Virus record (IMG/VR): IMGVR_UViG_3300026078_000024
Coordinates: 28,878 to 92,877 of that record
Source of the DNA: a virus
DNA: 64,000 nucleotides
Strand: one strand, 5' to 3'
Positions 27,272-35,665 of this stretch are shown one piece after another. The notes under the pieces are model-generated. The model searched no databases, was not told where the DNA came from, and worked only from the letters and a program-made list of their open reading frames with translations. Numbering within the stretch: position 1 is the stretch's first letter; each line of letters opens with the position of its first letter. The position numbers and the translations under genes were made by a program.

Positions 27272-27427
27272 ACAATCCTTCGGATGTTCTTCCGAACAAA
27301 GAACTGAAGGCACTGGCGGCACATCACCGCCGGTGCCTTCTCTGCCGCTATCTGTTCGGGTGCCGTGTCTCCGACCGTCTCCTCACCGCATATCATCACT
27401 CCGTTCACATCCCCATGGAGGCGCCCG

Positions 27428-28813
27428 GTGCTCCGGTTCCTGCGGTACGAGAAGATCCCCCTCGACGAGCTTGATCTCTTCCCCGGCAACGCGAACGTCG
27501 GCAACGTCCCGGCGATCGTGGAGTCCTTGATCGAGAATTCACAGTTCCGCAGTCTGATCGTTCGCGAGGTGGACGGGCGGCACGTGGTCATGGCCGGGAA
27601 CCATACGAAGCTGGCCATGGTCGAACACGGCGCACAGCTCTGCGACCGGGCGCGGCGGCACGCCGAGAACCCGGACGACAACCCTGCGTGCGGCCTGTGC
27701 GTGGACGATCAACCGTTCGACGGTCGGCCACGGTGCGAGATCTACGAATGCGACGACGACGATGCGATCAAGGTCAACGTCGCGGACAACCGGATCCAGG
27801 AGTTCGGGCACCGGGACGATCAGCTTCTGGCCGACCAGCTCGGCACGTTGGAAGATCTCGCGGGCACCGGTTACGACTACCACGACTACGAGTCGATCAC
27901 GCACCGCCTCTTGGAGGGCAGCTACATAGATCAGCAGACGGCGGAGGTACTGGCCACCCAGGAACCGGTGAGCGCCCCGGAGCCGGGAAGCCAGGCACCA
28001 CCCGACCCCCCTCGGGTCATCTCCCGCACCGTCCCCCTCGACGCCATGTTCTGTTGCCGCTACAACTCGATCTCCCTCGCGGCGTACGAGATGGGTTTCC
28101 TGCCCGGCATGATCTCGTCCAAGACCGATGCCTGGCGCAAGATCCTGGACCGCAACCCAGGCATCCGTATCGGTCTCATGGACAACGACTGGCACGACTA
28201 CGATCATGCCGCGCACATCGCCGGGGTGACGGAGGCGAAACCGAAATACGCCACGGTCCGGGACGTCATGACCAAGGCGCAGTGCGAGGCGGCCGGGGTG
28301 GAGTTCTTCCCGGTCGAACAGATCCTGGACATGGCGGCCGAGGTCGCGGAACACGCCGACCACGTGATCGTGATCCCGAAGTACGACTGCCTTGACAAGA
28401 TCCCCGAAGAGTACGTGATCGGGTTCTCCGTGCCCACGTCCTACGGCGGTACCCCCATGCCCGCCTCGATGCTCCAAGGACGCCGGGTCCACCTCCTCGG
28501 CGGATCATGGAAGAACCAGCGCGCGTTCCTGGAGATCCTCGGCGAGGACGTGGTGTCTCTGGACAACAACCACGTCTTGAGGATCTGCGAGTTCGGGAAC
28601 TTCTCGTTCCCCGACGGGTCCACGTCCCGTCTCGCCAATCTCGACCCACGGATGCCGCGCACCTGGCAGGCCGCCGCGATCTTGTCTCTTGCCTCCATCC
28701 GGGACGAACTCAACGCCCGGTATGCGGCAGGGATCACGTCGGCGGCCGACGAGGTGCCGGACGTGACGGAGTACGTGCACGACGATCAAGAGGACAACGA
28801 GGAGACGGAATGA
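27428..28813 (+). CDS. ParB/Srx N-domain fused to a TGT-like domain; candidate DpdA-type DNA deazaguanine transglycosylase
   Basis: N-terminus PGNAN.GNV..IVESL...AGNHT...ADNR; C-terminus YATVRD, VIVIPK, RRVHLLGGS, VSLDNN; directly upstream of queF/C/D/E and folE. Confidence 0.65.
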   Translation: MLRFLRYEKIPLDELDLFPGNANVGNVPAIVESLIENSQFRSLIVREVDGRHVVMAGNHTKLAMVEHGAQLCDRARRHAENPDDNPACGLCVDDQPFDGRPRCEIYECDDDDAIKVNVADNRIQEFGHRDDQLLADQLGTLEDLAGTGYDYHDYESITHRLLEGSYIDQQTAEVLATQEPVSAPEPGSQAPPDPPRVISRTVPLDAMFCCRYNSISLAAYEMGFLPGMISSKTDAWRKILDRNPGIRIGLMDNDWHDYDHAAHIAGVTEAKPKYATVRDVMTKAQCEAAGVEFFPVEQILDMAAEVAEHADHVIVIPKYDCLDKIPEEYVIGFSVPTSYGGTPMPASMLQGRRVHLLGGSWKNQRAFLEILGEDVVSLDNNHVLRICEFGNFSFPDGSTSRLANLDPRMPRTWQAAAILSLASIRDELNARYAAGITSAADEVPDVTEYVHDDQEDNEETE

Positions 28814-29202
28814 CCAAGGTTCTCGGAGAACGCACGAGCGCCCCGATCAAGGCGGCGGATCTCGACGTGATCGACGTCGACAACCTCGCCCGGCCGGTGC
28901 GCTACACCACCAAGGAGCTGAACGCCCTCTGCCCGGTCACCGGCCAGCCGGACCAGTACGAGGTGATCATTCAGTACGACGCGCCGGGGAAGACGATCGA
29001 GTCCAAGTCCCTGAAGCTCTACCTCTGGTCGTTCCGGGACCGGGGGATCTTCGCGGAGGATCTCGCCGCGACGATCGCGAAAGATCTCTGCAAGGCGTTG
29101 CGGTTCCCGGTCCGGGTGCATCTCACGCAACAGGTCCGGGGCGGGTTGGTCCTGGAGGTCGACGCGTTCGGAGAACCGGTCATGGGGAGTGACGACGTAT
29201 GA
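28810..29202 (+). CDS. queF: preQ0 reductase (type I QueF)
   Basis: LCPVTGQPD, QueF motif ESKSLKLY, RGG. Confidence 0.9.
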   Translation: MTKVLGERTSAPIKAADLDVIDVDNLARPVRYTTKELNALCPVTGQPDQYEVIIQYDAPGKTIESKSLKLYLWSFRDRGIFAEDLAATIAKDLCKALRFPVRVHLTQQVRGGLVLEVDAFGEPVMGSDDV

Positions 29203-29882
29203 AGGCGATCATCTGTTTCTCCGGCGGGATGGACTCCACCGTCCTCGCCACGTCGTACCTCCACCAGGGGTACAAGCTGGGCCTGTTGTCGTTCGACTAC
29301 GGGCAACGCCACAAGGCGGCCGAGCTGGCGGCCGGTGCGCGCGTCGCCGGGTATCTCGACAACCTCGGCATCGCGCCCGTGTCCCGCCAGGTGGTCGATC
29401 TCGGGGTCCTCGGGGATCTCCTCCCCGGTTCCGCGTTGACGGATCCGGAGGTCGACGTGCCGGACGGGCATTACGCGGCCGAGACGATGCGCGCCACCGT
29501 GGTCCCGAACCGCAATGCGATCATGGCGAACATCGCGATTGGGGTTGCGTCGGCGGTGGAGGCGGACGTGATCGCCCTCGGGATGCATGCCGGGGACCAC
29601 GCGATCTACCCCGACTGCCGACCCGAGTTCGTCCGGGCGTTGCGTCAGACCATGGTCCACGCCCTCAAGGGGTTCCACACCCCGCGTCTCGACACGCCGT
29701 TCATCGGCATCAGCAAGACCAACATCGCCCGCCTCGGGGACACCCTCGGCGCGCCGGTGCATCTCTCCTGGTCCTGCTACAAGGGCGGCGATTTGCACTG
29801 CGGCACCTGTGGCACGTGCACAGAGCGCAAAGAGGCGTTCAAGGACGCCGGTGTCCATGATCCGACGGAGTACCTGGCGTGA
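29199..29882 (+). CDS. queC: 7-cyano-7-deazaguanine synthase
   Basis: SGGMDS, YGQRH, VPNRN, YPDCRPEF, SCY...HCGTCGTC. Confidence 0.97.
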   Translation: MKAIICFSGGMDSTVLATSYLHQGYKLGLLSFDYGQRHKAAELAAGARVAGYLDNLGIAPVSRQVVDLGVLGDLLPGSALTDPEVDVPDGHYAAETMRATVVPNRNAIMANIAIGVASAVEADVIALGMHAGDHAIYPDCRPEFVRALRQTMVHALKGFHTPRLDTPFIGISKTNIARLGDTLGAPVHLSWSCYKGGDLHCGTCGTCTERKEAFKDAGVHDPTEYLA

Positions 29883-30256
29883 GCTACACGATCTGCAAGA
29901 CGTTCCGGTTCGAGGCCGCGCACCAGTTGCACGGCCTCCCGCCGGACCACCAGTGCGCCCGGATGCACGGCCACTCCTACCGGATCGACCTGGAACTCAC
30001 TGAGTTGGGTGCCGAGTTGGACTACCCCGGGTTCGTGGTCGACTTCGGGCGCCTGAAGCCGTTCAAGGAGTGGATCGACAAGACCCTCGATCACCGCGTC
30101 CTGAACGAGATCCTGCCGGTCGAACCGACAGCGGAGAACCTCGCCGCATGGATCTTCTCCGTGGTCGAGATCGCCCTCCCGGAATGGATCTCCGGCAAGG
30201 TCGCGGCCGTGAGGGTCCACGAGACCGAGACATCCTGGGCGGAGTACCGGCCGTGA
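29879..30256 (+). CDS. queD: 6-carboxy-tetrahydropterin synthase
   Basis: FEAAH, CARMHGHSY, DFG, LDHRVLN, PTAEN, ET. Confidence 0.95.
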   Translation: MSYTICKTFRFEAAHQLHGLPPDHQCARMHGHSYRIDLELTELGAELDYPGFVVDFGRLKPFKEWIDKTLDHRVLNEILPVEPTAENLAAWIFSVVEIALPEWISGKVAAVRVHETETSWAEYRP

Positions 30257-30900
30257 GGCCCGACTCCGTGGACAAGATCGTCGTCCAGTACTTCGGTGCC
30301 GTGACGGCGCAGCGGTTCGAGTACCGGGGCGTGGTGCACGACGTGCCGCGCCTCACCGTCTCCCCCGGCCTCCTGCGCGGTTACACCTGCCCGGCCGGAT
30401 GCGGCGGGTGCTGTCCCCGCTTCTCGTTGGACTACCTGCCGACCGAGACGCGGCCGGACGGCACCACGCCCCGGATGATCGACTTCAACGGGTACCAGGT
30501 GGAGATCTTCTCGGATCTCCAGGACGACCACCGTTCCGACCGCTGCCGGAACCTGATGCCCGACGGCCGGTGCGGCATCCATCCGGTCCGCCCGTTCTCG
30601 TGCGACTTCGAGCTGATCCGGTTCATGGCCCGGCCGGGCACGGCGCACATGAATCAGCGCCTGTTCTCCCGTGGGTGGAACATGAAGCGCACCGACGGCG
30701 GCCGGGGCGCCAAGTGCGAGATGCTCCCGGCCGACCCGTCCACCGTGGCGGACGTGATCCGTAAGCTCGGCCGTCTGGCGGAATGGGCCGACCACTTCGG
30801 GATCTCCACCCGCACCGGCCTGATCGTCGACTGGGTGGAGAAGATCAAGGACGATCCCATGTCGGCCGACAACCTCGTCCTTCCGGGGAGGTCGCGGTGA
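30253..30900 (+). CDS. CxxxCxxCC (YkgJ/FliB-like) Fe-S protein; candidate preQ1 N-methyltransferase
   Basis: CPAGCGGCC...CRNL..DGRCGIH..RPFSC; embedded between queD and queE with GTGA overlaps. Confidence 0.7.
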   Translation: MRPDSVDKIVVQYFGAVTAQRFEYRGVVHDVPRLTVSPGLLRGYTCPAGCGGCCPRFSLDYLPTETRPDGTTPRMIDFNGYQVEIFSDLQDDHRSDRCRNLMPDGRCGIHPVRPFSCDFELIRFMARPGTAHMNQRLFSRGWNMKRTDGGRGAKCEMLPADPSTVADVIRKLGRLAEWADHFGISTRTGLIVDWVEKIKDDPMSADNLVLPGRSR

Positions 30901-31652
30901 GCTACCAGGACAACCACGACACCGTGACCCCGTCTCTCGTCGTCTCGGAGATCTTCGGGCCGACCGTGTCCGGCGAGGGCGCGACGTTGGGGCGCCGGTG
31001 CGGCTTCCTCCGCCTCATGGGCTGCAACCTTCACTGCACGTGGTGCGACACGGCGTACACCTGGGATGCGCGCCGGTTCGATCTCGTCGCGCAGGGCCAC
31101 CGGATGACATGGCCGGTGATCGTGGAGCAACTGATCGCGATGAACGTCGACCTGGTGATCGTCTCCGGCGGAGAACCTCTCCTCCACCAGGACCAGCGGG
31201 CTTGGGAGTTGATCCTCCGCTCCCTGACCGGCGCCGGTATCGGGGTCGAGGTCGAGACGAACGGTACGAAGATCCCGAACCAGGCCAGCCGGGACTTCGT
31301 GCGCCGGTTCACCGTCTCCCCCAAGCTGGCGCACGCCGGTGATCCCGAGTCGGCGCGCATCGTGCCGGAGGCGATCGGTGCCTTTCGGCTGATCATGGAC
31401 CAGCTGGGTGAGTGGAAGGACAGGGTGATCTTCAAGTTCGTGTGCGCCACCCCGGAGCACGTGGCCGAGGTGCAGCGCTGGGTGAAGATCTTCCAGATCA
31501 GGCCGGAGTGCGTATGGATCATGCCGGAGGGCGTCGACACTCCGGCCTTGTGCGATCATCTGGCTGTGATCACGGATCCTGCCGTGGCTGCCGGGTTCAA
31601 CGTCACGACCCGCCTCCACATCCATGTGTGGGGCGACGAAAGAGGCCACTGA
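30897..31652 (+). CDS. queE: 7-carboxy-7-deazaguanine synthase (radical SAM)
   Basis: EIFGPTVSGEG, CNLHCTWCDT, SGGEP, VETNGT, SPKL, RLH. Confidence 0.95.
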   Translation: MSYQDNHDTVTPSLVVSEIFGPTVSGEGATLGRRCGFLRLMGCNLHCTWCDTAYTWDARRFDLVAQGHRMTWPVIVEQLIAMNVDLVIVSGGEPLLHQDQRAWELILRSLTGAGIGVEVETNGTKIPNQASRDFVRRFTVSPKLAHAGDPESARIVPEAIGAFRLIMDQLGEWKDRVIFKFVCATPEHVAEVQRWVKIFQIRPECVWIMPEGVDTPALCDHLAVITDPAVAAGFNVTTRLHIHVWGDERGH

Positions 31653-31654
31653 TC

Positions 31655-32290
31655 ATGTGCACTGACGCCTGTTCCGAGATGCATACCTACATCCCCGGTT
31701 GTGATCTCTCCGTGGGTTTCGCCGCGCCGACGGCGGCCGACATGTTCCGCGACGGCATGCGCGGCATGTTCTCGTACCTCGGTCTCGACCCGGACGGCGA
31801 GGAACTGGTGGACACCCCCGGCCGGTGGATCCGGGCCATGGAAGAGTTCACGCAGGGGTATCAGGAAGATCCCGGTCGGATCCTGGAACGGACCTTCCCC
31901 GTGGCCCGGTCCGGCGCGGAACCAATCGGCGTGTCCCATATCCCGTTCACGTCCATCTGTGCCCACCACCTGTTGCCGTTCTCCGGCACGGCGATGATCG
32001 CCTACATGCCCGGCGAGGGTGACCGGGTGGTGGGTCTCTCCAAGCTCCCGCGTCTTCTCGACGCGTTCGCCCGACGTCTCCAGACCCAGGAACGGATCAC
32101 GGTGCAGATCACCGAAGCGATCGACAAGCATCTGTCGCCCCGGGGTGCGGCGTGCGTGATCCGGTCCGAACACGGGTGCCTCGCGCACCGGGGAGCACGG
32201 AAGCCCGGCGCGGTCATGGTGACCTCGTCCTTTACGGGATACTTCAGAGATCCGGACCGTCGGCGGGAGCTTCTCGACCTCATGCGGTGA
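31655..32290 (+). CDS. folE: GTP cyclohydrolase I
   Basis: DTPGR, SICAHHLLPF, GLSKLPR, RRLQTQE, HGCLAHRG. Confidence 0.95.
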   Translation: MCTDACSEMHTYIPGCDLSVGFAAPTAADMFRDGMRGMFSYLGLDPDGEELVDTPGRWIRAMEEFTQGYQEDPGRILERTFPVARSGAEPIGVSHIPFTSICAHHLLPFSGTAMIAYMPGEGDRVVGLSKLPRLLDAFARRLQTQERITVQITEAIDKHLSPRGAACVIRSEHGCLAHRGARKPGAVMVTSSFTGYFRDPDRRRELLDLMR

Positions 32291-32317: not shown

Positions 32318-32914
32318 ATGACGGCACCCGAACGATTCGAAGATCCCGAGCGGTTGGAACGGATCAGGCAGGCCGCACACCTGAAGGTGGTCGTCGGCAT
32401 GACCTGGGACGATGCGGCGCGCGCCACCGGCTTCAACTCCCCCCAGGCGTGTTCGGCGGCGGTGAAGGCGCACGTCAAGAACCTCGCCCGGGAGACGGAG
32501 AAGGAGTTGGAGGCCCTCGTCCAGCAGTCGGACATGCGGTACGACGCCATGCGGCGCCGGGCTCACGCGATCATGGTGGCCGACCATCCGTTGGTGCAGG
32601 GCGGAGAGATCGTGAGGGACGACCAGGGGCGGCCGTTGCGGGACGCCGGTCCACAACTCGCGGCGCTCAATGCCCTGTTGAGAATCGAGTCGCAGTGGTC
32701 CGATCTGCACGGGATCAACGCCTCCAAAAAGCTGGAGATCGCCCTCAACGTCCGGGCCGACGTGGAGTCGAATCTTGTGGCAGAGGCGGTTCTCGCGGCG
32801 GCTGAAGCCCTTGGCTTGGAACCCCAACAGCGCATGCTCGCCCTGGAAGCGGCAGCGGCGCGTCTCGACGCGGTGGACGGAGAGGTGATCTCGGATGAGC
32901 AGACCCCTGAGTGA
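32318..32914 (+). CDS. putative terminase small subunit (HTH)
   Basis: N-terminal HTH (GMTWDDAARATGF), D.GPQLAA...LLRI..LHGINA as in actinophage TerS-like proteins. Confidence 0.6.
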   Translation: MTAPERFEDPERLERIRQAAHLKVVVGMTWDDAARATGFNSPQACSAAVKAHVKNLARETEKELEALVQQSDMRYDAMRRRAHAIMVADHPLVQGGEIVRDDQGRPLRDAGPQLAALNALLRIESQWSDLHGINASKKLEIALNVRADVESNLVAEAVLAAAEALGLEPQQRMLALEAAAARLDAVDGEVISDEQTPE

Positions 32915-33053
32915 AGACGATGCGGCGGCCCGGCGGAAAGACGAGAACGGTTCATGGGGCGTGATCGTCATGTGCGACACCGAACAGCAGCAGATCGAGC
33001 TGCTCCAGCGCATGATCGACGAAGGCCGGGTCGTCCGCGCCCTGATCAAATGA
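32895..33053 (+). CDS. small protein (52 aa)
   Basis: WGVIVMCDTEQQQIELLQRMIDEG; translationally coupled to the GNAT gene. Confidence 0.55.
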   Translation: MSRPLSEDDAAARRKDENGSWGVIVMCDTEQQQIELLQRMIDEGRVVRALIK

Positions 33054-33580
33054 CCGGGTTCACGTGGCACCGGTCGACCGGCCATCCATTCGTCCCGTTG
33101 TGCATTCACAAGATCGACCGGTCCCTGTGGCCCATGTTCTCCCGCCACCACTACCTGAGCGCCGATATCAACTCCTCCGCACAGTGTTACGGCGGGTTCA
33201 TCGGGGAAGATCTCGTGGCGTTCATGGCGTACATCCATTTCCCCCATCCCAAGGTCCGGAACATCAAACGCGGGCATCGCACCGTCGTCCTCCCCGACTT
33301 CCAAGGGCTCGGGATCTCCGGGGTCATGGCGGAAACCATCGGCCAGATGCTGCACGATCAAGGCTTCCGTTACCGGCGCGTCATCGCCCACCCGGCAGTG
33401 ATCTCCTACTGCTCCCGGTCACCGCGTTGGAGGGAAACCACCAACACCTCTCGCAAGGTTCCTGACCGGCCGACCGGAGACAGGTGGAGTGTGGCGGGAG
33501 AACGGACCCCGGTGAAACGGATCATCGATCCCCGCGTCCTGTCCATGAGATCGTTCGAGTATGTGCCGGTGATCAGGTGA
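33050..33580 (+). CDS. GNAT-family acetyltransferase
   Basis: FSRHHYL, RTVVLPDFQGLGI acetyl-CoA motif A, HPA. Confidence 0.85.
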   Translation: MTGFTWHRSTGHPFVPLCIHKIDRSLWPMFSRHHYLSADINSSAQCYGGFIGEDLVAFMAYIHFPHPKVRNIKRGHRTVVLPDFQGLGISGVMAETIGQMLHDQGFRYRRVIAHPAVISYCSRSPRWRETTNTSRKVPDRPTGDRWSVAGERTPVKRIIDPRVLSMRSFEYVPVIR

Positions 33581-34251
33581 AGAGGGACATCGAGGTCTTT
33601 ACGGAGATCAACGTCACGCCCCGGGTTCTCCAGGTGTCCGGCATGTTCGACGTCCCGGCGTCCGGCAGGGTCACCGCCCAGTGGAGTGTGGATCTTCCCA
33701 TCGAGGACCGTGAGTGGAATGTCGGTCTTATCGTCGGCCCGTCCGGTTCGGGCAAGTCGGTCATGGCGCGCACATTGTTCCCCGAGGCGACCCGTGCCGT
33801 TCATTCCTGGGACGACCGGGCCCTTGTCGACTGCTTCCCTCCCGGTATGGGGATCAAAGACGTGGTCGGCCTCCTCACCTCGGTGGGTCTCGGTTCTCCC
33901 CCGGCGTGGATACGCCCCTACCGGACCCTCTCCACCGGTGAGGCGTTCCGCGCCTCCGTCGCCCGTACATTGGCCCAGGCCGAGGGAGTGTGCGTGGTGG
34001 ACGAGTTCACGTCCACCGTGGACCGGCAGGTTGCGAAGATCGCCAGTCATGCGATTCAGAAGACAGTGCGGCGGCGCGGCCAGCAACTGATCGCCGTCAC
34101 CTGCCACTACGATGTGATCGACTGGCTTCAGCCGGATTGGATCTACGACACCGGAACGTCACACGCGGCACTCGGCGGAGAAGATCCGGCGGTCATTGAG
34201 AAGATCAACCCCACCGGCCCGTGCGTCCACCAGACAAGGATCTCCTCATGA
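33577..34251 (+). CDS. ABC-type ATPase (non-transporter)
   Basis: GPSGSGKS, LSTGE, VVDEFTSTVDR, TCHYDV. Confidence 0.9.
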   Translation: MKRDIEVFTEINVTPRVLQVSGMFDVPASGRVTAQWSVDLPIEDREWNVGLIVGPSGSGKSVMARTLFPEATRAVHSWDDRALVDCFPPGMGIKDVVGLLTSVGLGSPPAWIRPYRTLSTGEAFRASVARTLAQAEGVCVVDEFTSTVDRQVAKIASHAIQKTVRRRGQQLIAVTCHYDVIDWLQPDWIYDTGTSHAALGGEDPAVIEKINPTGPCVHQTRISS

Positions 34252-35572: not shown

Positions 35573-35592
35573 CTGCGCTGGAGCAAGATCAG

Positions 35593-35665
35593 TCGGGTGG
35601 GTGAGACTCGAACTCACGATCTCTGGTTCCCGAAACCAGTGCCTTACCACCTTGGCCACCACCCG
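35593..35665 (-). tRNA. tRNA-Pro (anticodon CGG)
   Basis: CGGGTGG/CCACCCG acceptor stem, D arm GCCAAGGTGGTAAGGC, CTGGT-TTCGGGA-ACCAG anticodon arm, GTGAG-TTCGAGT-CTCAC T arm; CCA not encoded. Confidence 0.92.

What the first reader, a model, noticed from the sequence alone, without database searches (positions are those of the whole stretch)
30253..30900. CxxxCxxCC Fe-S-type protein wedged between queD and queE: candidate preQ1 amine methyltransferase
Seen: CPAGCGGCC...C..L..DGRCGIH..RPFSC, with 4-nt overlaps to both que neighbours. Established: this Cys pattern marks the YkgJ/FliB family, and FliB methylates lysine primary amines. preQ1, available here through QueF, carries a primary aminomethyl group. 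Inference: the protein methylates it, giving an N-methyl-preQ1 base (a DpdM-like role).
Basis: partly seen in the sequence, partly recalled or inferred. Interest (0 to 1): 0.75.

Follow-up and report, generated by a model that had tools for sequence, protein, structure and literature searches.

The report
Phage DpdM: preQ1 DNA-base methylase

Summary
The ORF at 30253-30900 (+, GTG start, 215 aa) is real. It overlaps queD and queE by GTGA and carries CPAGCGGCC plus four more Cys.

It is a full-length homologue of the two DpdM proteins tied to mdPreQ1 by experiment (Cui et al. 2023, PMC10516641):
- Vibrio phage VH7D: 32% identity, E 2e-32.
- Cellulophaga phage phiSM: 42% identity, E 1e-27.

All eight metal-binding Cys are invariant. 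An AlphaFold model (pLDDT 95) matches the viral DpdM-type models at TM 0.82-0.97 and matches no solved structure.

Across 82 unique homologue loci, 57 have 7-deazaguanine genes in their flanks. Every genome at least 87% complete encodes QueF.

Syntenic operons exist without the gene (provirus L042; Mycobacterium phage Rinkes versus Knocker). dpdM is therefore an add-on tailoring cassette.

Less ordinary points:
- The only candidate transglycosylase in this 92.9-kb virus is a ParB-DUF6610 fusion. DUF6610 is "DpdA4", published as specific to archaeal viruses.
- Fifteen loci hold a bare DUF6610-DpdM pair.
- DpdM and FliB match the same Pfam model, which points to [4Fe-4S]/SAM chemistry.

The scan met a DpdM orthologue before on other DNA (e1-5351978).

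The parts
30253..30900 (+). dpdM orthologue (215 aa; CxxxCxxCC plus 4 further Cys): the finding itself
27365..28813 (+). ParB-like N-terminal domain fused to DUF6610 (the 'DpdA4' of Cui 2023). It is the only candidate DNA guanine transglycosylase found in this virus genome.
   Evidence: PF20314 at 130.6 bits and phrog_723 ParB. No Knocker, Pan1 or phiSM DpdA-like gene in the whole 92.9-kb genome. The domain model is a TIM barrel that aligns to Z. mobilis TGT over 221-226 of 231 residues at Z 13, tied with other TIM barrels.
28810..29202 (+). queF (unimodular preQ0 reductase; CPVTGQPD and ESKSLKLY motifs)
   Evidence: PF14489 at 56 bits, TIGR03139 at 76 bits, sequence, start codon
29199..29882 (+). 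queC
   Evidence: PF06508 at 193 bits
29879..30256 (+). queD
   Evidence: PF01242 at 110 bits
30897..31652 (+). queE (radical SAM CDG synthase)
   Evidence: PF04055 and PF13353; homologues in related operons
31655..32290 (+). folE (GTP cyclohydrolase I)
   Evidence: PF01227 at 186 bits; ATG at 31655

Best explanation
The gene encodes an orthologue of phage DpdM. DpdM is a metal/Fe-S cysteine-cluster enzyme that N-methylates the exocyclic aminomethyl group of 7-aminomethyl-7-deazaguanine (preQ1), so that 2'-deoxy-7-(methylamino)methyl-7-deazaguanosine (mdPreQ1) appears in the phage's own DNA. The pathway in this virus would run as follows. FolE, QueD, QueE and QueC make preQ0 (established pathway). 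QueF reduces it to preQ1 (established for phage QueF). The ParB-DUF6610 protein exchanges guanine in DNA for preQ1 (inferred; DUF6610 is untested biochemically). DpdM then methylates the amine, on DNA as proposed in the literature or on the free base (open question). By analogy with FliB, which matches the same Pfam model, the methyl donor is probably SAM and the CxxxCxxC(C) cysteines probably hold an oxygen-sensitive [4Fe-4S] cluster (inferred). The biological role is protection of phage DNA from host restriction. This is established for other 7-deazaguanines and inferred here.
For: Homology: tblastn gives VH7D-type Vibrio DpdMs at 32% identity over residues 1-199 (E 2e-32), phiSM DpdM at 42% over residues 33-157 (E 1e-27), and Knocker gp4 and Pan1_55 at 53%. 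All 8 Cys are invariant in the 5-way alignment and in 59 sequences. Fold: the model has pLDDT 95.4 and pTM 0.90. It matches three BFVD models at TM 0.97, 0.86 and 0.82, of 214, 304 and 217 aa, which are the lengths of Knocker gp4, VH7D DpdM and phiSM DpdM. A generic viral Zn/Fe-chelating-domain protein reaches only TM 0.34. [quoted passage not shown] Context: the gene sits in a seven-gene, translationally coupled operon with QueF. Of 82 unique homologue loci, 57 carry deazaguanine genes in their flanks; immediate neighbours are DUF6610 (13 upstream), DpdA (12 downstream) and QueF (21). Every homologue-bearing record at least 87% complete has QueF. Presence/absence: L042 has the same ParB-DUF6610-queF-queC-queD-queE-folE order without dpdM. 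Rinkes equals the Knocker operon minus dpdM. dpdM occupies four different slots in related operons. Phylogeny: the window protein lies inside the clade spanned by phiSM and VH7D DpdM (midpoint root). Mechanistic analogy: FliB is SAM-dependent, needs a [4Fe-4S] cluster, has a CX4CX3CC motif and 8 conserved Cys (PMC8598068). FliB-family ORFs and DpdMs match PF03692 positions 2 to about 70.
Against: There is no chemistry for this protein or for any member of its subclade; it is only 32-42% identical to the validated enzymes. The virus is an uncultivated metagenomic genome. In the published cases mdPreQ1 is a minor species (about 5% of dPreQ1; 0.01-0.1% of G), and the methyl donor and metal content of DpdM are unknown. 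The authors even argue that a fourth Cys would disfavour a [4Fe-4S]/SAM site. The partner transglycosylase here is DUF6610, which has never been shown to be active. The Pfam score is just below gathering (21.9 versus 23 bits). Direct DpdM-FliB profile similarity is weak.
Confidence: 0.8

Rival explanations
1. Same enzyme and same product, but a different substrate stage. DpdM methylates the free base preQ1 in the nucleotide pool, and the transglycosylase then inserts N-methyl-preQ1. This is nested inside the best explanation; it is a rival only to the step 'acts on DNA'.
For: This is my inference from Table 2 of PMC10516641. Co-expressing DpdM with DpdA2 drops dPreQ1 from 2765 to 0, and from 3666 to 97 per 10^6 nt, while only 9-40 mdPreQ1 appear. 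Methylation of DNA-resident dPreQ1 should conserve the sum; diversion of the free preQ1 pool would not. In the window the gene sits among the base-synthesis genes (queD-dpdM-queE), not next to the transglycosylase.
Against: Cui et al. describe a positively charged groove and tunnel in the phiSM model and propose action on DNA. Across the family the most frequent immediate neighbours are the transglycosylases DUF6610 and DpdA, which fits either order. Gene order is weak evidence. The drop in dPreQ1 could also reflect expression burden or inhibition of DpdA2.
Confidence: 0.3
2. A DpdM-like enzyme that places a different group on the preQ1 amine (dimethyl, aminocarboxypropyl or another alkyl), so the final base in this clade is not mdPreQ1.
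For: The window clade (window, L049, L050, Knocker) is only 32-42% identical to the validated DpdMs. FliB cleaves SAM to MTA as well as SAH, so ACP-type chemistry is accessible in the superfamily. mdPreQ1 is only a trace product in known phages, which leaves room for an undetected main product.
Against: All catalytic-site candidates (8 Cys, R42, R106, D118, E120, R123) are invariant across the whole family, including the validated members. The fold is near-identical (TM 0.82-0.86). There is no positive evidence for another product.
Confidence: 0.1
3. Not a tailoring enzyme. Instead it is a small Fe-S/Zn protein serving the pathway, for example as an electron donor or maturation factor for the radical-SAM enzyme QueE immediately downstream.
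For: It overlaps queE by 4 nt. It is a Cys-rich putative Fe-S protein. QueE needs a reductant (general knowledge).
Against: The syntenic operons in L042 and Rinkes have QueE without this gene. Fifteen loci pair it with DUF6610 and have no queE. In VH7D it lies far from any que gene, yet it generates mdPreQ1 in E. coli. QueE is the immediate neighbour in only 6 of 82 loci.
Confidence: 0.04

Closest known systems
DpdM of Vibrio phage VH7D (CF80_gp081) and Cellulophaga phage phiSM (CEPG_00054 / PhiSM_gp53); Cui et al. 2023, NAR 51:9214
   Same: Full-length homology, the CxxxCxxCC motif plus four further invariant Cys, the same predicted fold with no solved relative, and a genome that also encodes QueF and a deazaguanine DNA transglycosylase.
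   Different: Only 32-42% identity. The host virus is a 65% GC uncultivated phage whose terminase is closest to Streptomyces phages (43% identity). The partner transglycosylase is a ParB-DUF6610 fusion rather than DpdA1 or DpdA2. The gene is wedged between queD and queE.
Mycobacterium phage Knocker gp4 (hypothetical protein) and Pseudanabaena phage Pan1_55 (YkgJ family cysteine cluster protein)
   Same: These are the closest isolated-phage homologues (53% identity; TM 0.97 to the Knocker-length model). Both lie inside queF-containing deazaguanine operons. Knocker also has ParB-DUF6610 as gp1.
   Different: Both are unannotated as DpdM and untested. Knocker additionally has a DpdA-like gp3. Pan1 has a TGT-like DpdA and no DUF6610.
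FliB, flagellin lysine-N-methylase of Salmonella (NF038110; Wang et al. 2021, PMC8598068)
   Same: It N-methylates a primary alkylamine. It has an N-terminal Cys motif ending in CC plus further conserved Cys (8 in all). It matches the same Pfam model, PF03692, over the same positions. It shares a central C..L..G.C.IH...P..C segment.
   Different: The substrate is a protein. FliB is about 390-430 aa with a long C-terminal region. The motif spacing is CX4CX3CC, not CX3CX2CC. The window protein has no NF038110 hit. hhalign probability is only 9%.
[quoted passage not shown]
   Same: It is an alternative add-on enzyme that decorates the same preQ1 amine in a queF-containing phage pathway.
   Different: It has an unrelated fold and cofactor, and it gives complete replacement by fdPreQ1.
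Class A/B radical-SAM methylases (RlmN/Cfr type)
   Same: A CxxxCxxC motif is present, and Fe-S/SAM methyl transfer is possible.
   Different: There is no Radical_SAM Pfam match. The model is not a TIM-barrel radical-SAM fold and matches no solved structure. In the DpdM family a fourth Cys is predicted at the cluster site.

Membership tests
DpdM (phage dPreQ1 methyltransferase, Cui et al. 2023) | Significant, near full-length sequence similarity to the experimentally linked DpdMs (VH7D, phiSM) | tested here: met
   VH7D-type at 31.8% identity over residues 1-199, E 2e-32; phiSM at 41.8% over residues 33-157, E 1e-27. Alignment. phrog_21666 and phrog_16018 at E 1e-29 to 1e-30.
DpdM (phage dPreQ1 methyltransferase, Cui et al. 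2023) | CxxxCxxCC motif plus four further Cys forming two predicted 4-Cys metal sites | tested here: met
   C46, C50, C53, C54, C98, C107, C117 and C155 are invariant. The geometry of the two sites could not be checked because no model coordinates were available.
DpdM (phage dPreQ1 methyltransferase, Cui et al. 2023) | Shared DpdM fold, with no solved homologue | tested here: met
   Model pLDDT 95.4. BFVD matches at TM 0.86 (304 aa, 31% identity) and 0.82 (217 aa, 29% identity). These entries are unnamed in the tool and were identified only by length and identity. PDB: Foldseek found nothing at E<=1e-3; the best VIA Z was 2.6.
DpdM (phage dPreQ1 methyltransferase, Cui et al. 2023) | Genome also encodes QueF (or can draw on host preQ1) and a deazaguanine DNA transglycosylase | tested here: met
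   QueF at 28810-29202 and ParB-DUF6610 at 27365-28813 lie in the same operon. Family-wide census.
DpdM (phage dPreQ1 methyltransferase, Cui et al. 2023) | Produces mdPreQ1 in DNA | not testable with these tools
   This needs LC-MS/MS. The virus is an uncultivated IMG/VR genome.
Pfam PF03692 CxxCxxCC (YkgJ-type putative Zn/Fe-chelating domain) | Score at or above the gathering threshold (23 bits) | tested here: inconclusive
   21.9 bits for the 215-aa protein and 23.6 bits for the six-frame ORF. phiSM DpdM scores 25.7 and VH7D 16.4. Many close homologues carry a precomputed PF03692 hit. The protein is a borderline, peripheral member.
FliB flagellin lysine-N-methylase (NCBIfam NF038110) | Match to the equivalog model, CX4CX3CC spacing, and a protein of about 370 aa or more | tested here: not met
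   No NCBIfam hit at E<=0.01. Spacing is CX3CX2CC and length is 215 aa. hhalign against 8 FliB-family ORFs gives probability 9% over 25 columns.
Radical SAM superfamily (PF04055) | Radical_SAM domain match around the CxxxCxxC motif | tested here: not met
   Only PF03692 was reported for this protein at E<=0.01, whereas the neighbouring QueE does match PF04055.
DpdA4 / DUF6610 (applies to the neighbouring gene 27365-28813) | PF20314 match; TGT-like TIM barrel; found with preQ1 genes | tested here: met
   PF20314 at 130.6 bits. Haloarchaeal virus homologues including HVTV-1 gp69. TGT aligned over 221-226 of 231 residues at Z 13, tied with other TIM barrels. The published restriction to archaeal viruses does not hold here.

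The most novel reading that the evidence does not exclude
DpdM's real partner is the DUF6610 ('DpdA4') transglycosylase, and the DUF6610-DpdM pair is a self-sufficient two-gene module that turns host or phage preQ1 into methyl-preQ1 in DNA. It would operate in bacterial phages (here guided by a fused ParB domain) and in bacterial chromosomes as well. DpdM would be a FliB-like, oxygen-sensitive [4Fe-4S]/SAM N-methylase. Its activity would then have been underestimated in aerobic E. coli assays, and mdPreQ1 could be the major base in phages such as this one.
Probability: 0.3. Interest if true: 0.6.

Novelty: new member of a known kind. Interest (0 to 1): 0.38.

Why it matters
DpdM is known from a single paper. 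It has no solved structure, its cofactor and methyl donor are unknown, and the measured activity is very low.

This locus and its relatives add four things.

1. The family is much larger than the eight phages reported: 370 clusters at 50% identity. It reaches high-GC phages, including a cultivable mycobacteriophage, Knocker.

2. Natural plus/minus pairs exist (Knocker versus Rinkes; the window versus L042). These make the function testable by simple DNA mass spectrometry.

3. There is a recurrent link to DUF6610 ("DpdA4"), which was thought to be specific to archaeal viruses and has never been shown to be active. Here it appears in bacterial phages and in bacterial contigs.

4. A documented biochemical precedent, FliB, suggests assaying DpdM anaerobically with SAM and a reductant.

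None of this overturns current understanding. It extends a known counter-restriction DNA modification pathway.

Tried and rejected
The contexts of the closest homologues (P0002-P0010, 70-86% identity) could not be read, so I used the search for related loci instead.

- The TGT Pfam model PF01702 found nothing in the window's genome. It also misses every known phage DpdA, 0 of 21 records including Knocker gp3 and phiSM DpdA1, so that negative is uninformative. I replaced it with tblastn of three phage DpdAs against the whole genome, which gave nothing better than E 0.75.

- The supplements of Cui et al. are not held. I could not check whether Knocker is among their 'seven other phages'.

- I looked for a FliB sequence in the E. 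coli 042 flag-2 locus. The only relative, EC042_RS01400, matches NF038110 positions 106-363 and lacks the Cys-rich N-terminus, so it was useless for comparison. Full-length FliB-family ORFs came from a phylum sample instead.

- The direct profile-profile comparison of DpdM and FliB was weak. I therefore do not claim close homology.

- The PDB sequence search, Foldseek PDB search and VIA wide search gave no solved relative. This is no proof of a new fold.

- Pfam scans of long fused forms containing a DpdM domain (P0149, P0201, P0229, P0236, P0266) gave no informative partner domain.

- No promoter or terminator signal stood out above shuffles inside the operon.

Full report
OBSERVATION

The ORF at 30253-30900 (+) starts with GTG inside the sequence GTGA, which also holds the queD stop. 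It ends with TGA inside a second GTGA, which holds the queE start.

It encodes 215 aa with CPAGCGGCC (C46, C50, C53, C54) and further Cys at 98, 107 (DGRCGIH), 117 (RPFSCDFE) and 155. The start is fixed by homologues that begin at the same aligned position.

The surrounding genes form one translationally coupled unit:
- ParB-DUF6610 (27365-28813)
- queF (28810-29202)
- queC (29199-29882)
- queD (29879-30256)
- this ORF (30253-30900)
- queE (30897-31652)
- folE (31655-32290)

Five of the junctions are 4-nt overlaps and the last is a 2-nt spacer.

The window is the 3' 64 kb of a 92,877-bp IMG/VR virus genome rated 100% complete. It has about 65% GC. Its large terminase is closest to Streptomyces phages at 43% identity. 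An actinobacterial host is therefore plausible but not shown.

WHAT IT IS

Pfam gives only a borderline CxxCxxCC hit: PF03692 at 21.9 bits against a cut-off of 23. NCBIfam gives nothing.

tblastn against sequenced phages finds 27 records:
- Mycobacterium phage Knocker gp4: 53.5% identity.
- Pseudanabaena phage Pan1_55: 53% identity.
- Eighteen Vibrio phage records, including the VH7D, phi-Grn1 and phi-ST2 group: 28-32% identity, E down to 2e-33.
- Seven Cellulophaga phage records (phiSM group): 42% identity over the core, E 1e-27.

The Vibrio and Cellulophaga proteins are the ones Cui et al. 2023 (PMC10516641) named DpdM.
- VH7D DpdM co-expressed with VH7D DpdA2 produces mdPreQ1 in E. coli plasmid DNA. 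It does not do so in a delta-queF strain.

The eight Cys that those authors assign to two metal sites are invariant in the 5-way alignment and in a 59-sequence alignment. That alignment also keeps R42, R74, R106, D118, E120, R123, R140, R170, R174 and W178.

An AlphaFold2 model built on that alignment is very confident: pLDDT 95.4, pTM 0.90.
- In the viral model library it matches three proteins at TM 0.97, 0.86 and 0.82. Their lengths (214, 304, 217 aa) and identities (53, 31, 29%) fit Knocker gp4, the Vibrio DpdM and the phiSM DpdM.
- The next hit, a generic viral 'zinc- or iron-chelating domain' protein, reaches only TM 0.34.
- No solved structure resembles it. Foldseek finds nothing at E<=1e-3, the best VIA-align Z is 2.6 over 48,161 chains, and phmmer against PDB finds nothing.
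- This agrees with the published statement that DpdM has a fold not seen in nucleic-acid methylases.

FAMILY AND CONTEXT

The family is discrete and small.
- 370 clusters at 50% identity out of 1.84 billion representatives reach E<=1e-3, and 283 reach E<=1e-10.
- 482 clusters at 90% identity are found, nearly all metagenomic.
- Only 8 loci were found in one genome each of 185,579 prokaryote species.

I collected homologue loci from sequenced phages, IMG/VR, GTDB genomes and JGI/ENA metagenomes. I classified their ORFs with HMMs built in session for QueF, QueC, QueD, QueE, FolE, DpdA and DUF6610.

Results for the 82 unique loci:
- 57 have at least one deazaguanine gene in what is often a very short flank.
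- Of the 23 loci with at least 5 kb on both sides, 17 do: QueF in 13, DpdA in 8, DUF6610 in 5.
- Three of the six exceptions (VH7D, L016, L019) encode QueF elsewhere in the same genome.
- Records with no QueF at all are fragments rated 8-24% complete.
- The immediate neighbours of dpdM are DUF6610 (13 upstream), DpdA (12 downstream) and QueF (12 upstream, 9 downstream).

The queD-dpdM-queE-folE arrangement of the window is kept in a relative at 74% identity (L050) and in two copies at 100% and 99% identity from other samples (L048, L049).

DPDM IS AN ADD-ON CASSETTE

- An IMG/VR provirus (L042, GC 0.69) has ParB-DUF6610 (54% identical), queF, queC, queD, queE and folE in the window's order. 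Only 20 nt separate queD and queE, and there is no dpdM anywhere in the 57.7-kb record.
- Mycobacterium phage Rinkes has the Knocker operon minus gp4.
- In other ParB-DUF6610 operons dpdM sits after queE (L079), after queF (L088) or after dpdA (Knocker).

A gene that comes and goes at different slots in otherwise conserved preQ1 operons behaves as an optional tailoring step, not as part of base synthesis.

In a FastTree of 70 family members, the window groups with L049, L050 and Knocker. It lies within the clade spanned by phiSM DpdM (basal) and VH7D DpdM (nested). The root is a midpoint root, so the bracketing is provisional.

HOW IT MOST LIKELY WORKS

What is shown by others:
- Phage QueF reduces preQ0 to preQ1.
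- DpdM is required for mdPreQ1.

What I infer here:
- The ParB-DUF6610 protein supplies dPreQ1 in DNA.
- DUF6610 is the 'DpdA4' of Cui et al. It was found in Halovirus HVTV-1, whose DNA carries dPreQ1 at 30% of G. Its activity has never been demonstrated.

Evidence on the transglycosylase in this virus:
- No DpdA1- or DpdA2-type gene exists in the whole genome.
- The DUF6610 domain model (pLDDT 82) is a TIM barrel.
- It aligns with Z. mobilis tRNA-guanine transglycosylase over 221-226 of 231 residues at Z 13. That score is tied with other TIM barrels, so this is compatible but not specific.

For the chemistry, the best precedent is FliB. It is a SAM-dependent lysine N-methylase that needs an oxygen-sensitive [4Fe-4S] cluster held by a CX4CX3CC motif, and it has eight conserved Cys (PMC8598068). 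Cui et al. do not mention FliB.

I fetched eight full-length FliB-family ORFs (NF038110 above cut-off).
- They and the DpdMs match the same Pfam model over the same positions: FliB 26.7 and 23.1 bits, phiSM DpdM 25.7, window 21.9.
- Direct hhalign similarity is limited to the central C..L..G.C.IH...P..C segment: 25 columns, probability 9%.
- So FliB is a superfamily-level analogy, not a close relative.

This analogy predicts SAM as methyl donor and sensitivity to oxygen. That could explain the very low mdPreQ1 yields published so far. It is a hypothesis.

Whether methylation happens on DNA (the authors' proposal) or on the free base is open.
- In their Table 2, DpdM co-expression removes almost all dPreQ1 (2765 to 0; 3666 to 97) while only 9-40 mdPreQ1 appear.
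- In my reading this fits diversion of the free preQ1 pool at least as well as methylation of DNA.

COMPARISON WITH THE KNOWN, AND NOVELTY

The protein passes every DpdM membership criterion that sequence tools can test. It fails those of FliB proper and of radical SAM. It is a borderline PF03692 member. It is therefore a new member of a known kind.

Three things go beyond the literature held in the library, where DpdM, mdPreQ1, DpdA4 and DUF6610 occur in that one paper only.
- DUF6610 is not confined to archaeal viruses. Among sequenced phages it occurs in 49 haloarchaeal virus records and, fused to ParB, in three Mycobacterium phages. It also occurs in this virus and several IMG/VR and TARA contigs.
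- Fifteen loci hold a DUF6610-DpdM pair without que genes. Two of these sit in contexts that look chromosomal rather than viral. In a Meiothermus MAG the pair is flanked by MetH, a cupin regulator and an oligopeptide ABC transporter. In a Bryobacterales MAG it is flanked by a transposase and a tannase.
- The FliB precedent for mechanism.

The same scan already followed up a DpdM orthologue in another genome (e1-5351978).

VERDICT

The enzyme family is already described, so interest is moderate (0.38). That interest comes mainly from the DUF6610 partnership and from the ready-made plus/minus phage pairs for testing.

Noticed in passing
window 27365-28813; L001 1-1317 (Knocker gp1); L047 1-1302 (Rinkes gp1): DUF6610 ('DpdA4', published as specific to archaeal viruses) occurs fused to a ParB-like domain in bacterial phages. 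These include this virus, three Mycobacterium phages annotated only as 'ParB-like nuclease domain protein', and several IMG/VR and TARA contigs. In the window's genome it is the only candidate deazaguanine transglycosylase.
   Followed up: partly
L030 7337-8618; L025 6886-8621; L024 2828-4212; also L061, L053, L057, L060, L063, L078, L102, L108, L112, L113, L116, L023: Fifteen loci carry a DUF6610 gene directly next to (usually overlapping) a dpdM homologue, with no que genes in the flank. In L030 (Meiothermus MAG) the neighbours are MetH, an HTH-cupin regulator and an oligopeptide ABC transporter. In L024 they are a transposase and a tannase. This may be a cellular or island-borne two-gene DNA-modification module that uses host preQ1.
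   Followed up: partly
L042 8001-12090 (IMG/VR provirus, 57.7 kb): This locus has the same ParB-DUF6610-queF-queC-queD-queE-folE operon as the window (49-65% identical proteins, except QueD at 33%) but no dpdM. Only 20 nt separate queD and queE. It is a natural minus-dpdM comparator.
   Followed up: yes
L001 1310-1702 (Knocker gp2); L047 1299-1691 (Rinkes gp2): These genes are annotated 'GTP cyclohydrolase I' or 'GTP cyclohydrolase' but are QueF-like (48.7% identical to the window's QueF). These cluster-B-type mycobacteriophages are therefore predicted to carry dPreQ1 rather than the dPreQ0 measured in Rosebush.
   Followed up: partly
proteins P0149 (779 aa), P0201 (1064 aa), P0229, P0236, P0266: These are long metagenomic proteins with a full DpdM domain fused to large regions that have no informative Pfam match. 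P0149 has a DUF3102 hit. The partner domains are unexplained.
   Followed up: partly
L032 2957-3886 (-), E. coli 042 flag-2 locus, EC042_RS01400: This 309-aa protein is annotated 'hypothetical' in most E. coli genomes and 'lysine-N-methylase' in some. It matches only positions 106-363 of the FliB model and lacks the Cys-rich N-terminal region, so it is unlikely to be an active FliB-type methylase on its own. It is present in 1279 of 5426 complete E. coli genomes.
   Followed up: partly
window 32895-34251: Small ORFs follow folE and a putative HTH protein. They were not examined here, and a link to the deazaguanine pathway is untested.
   Followed up: no
window 35592-35665 (-): A single tRNA-Pro(CGG) gene lies downstream of the modification operon.
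   Followed up: no
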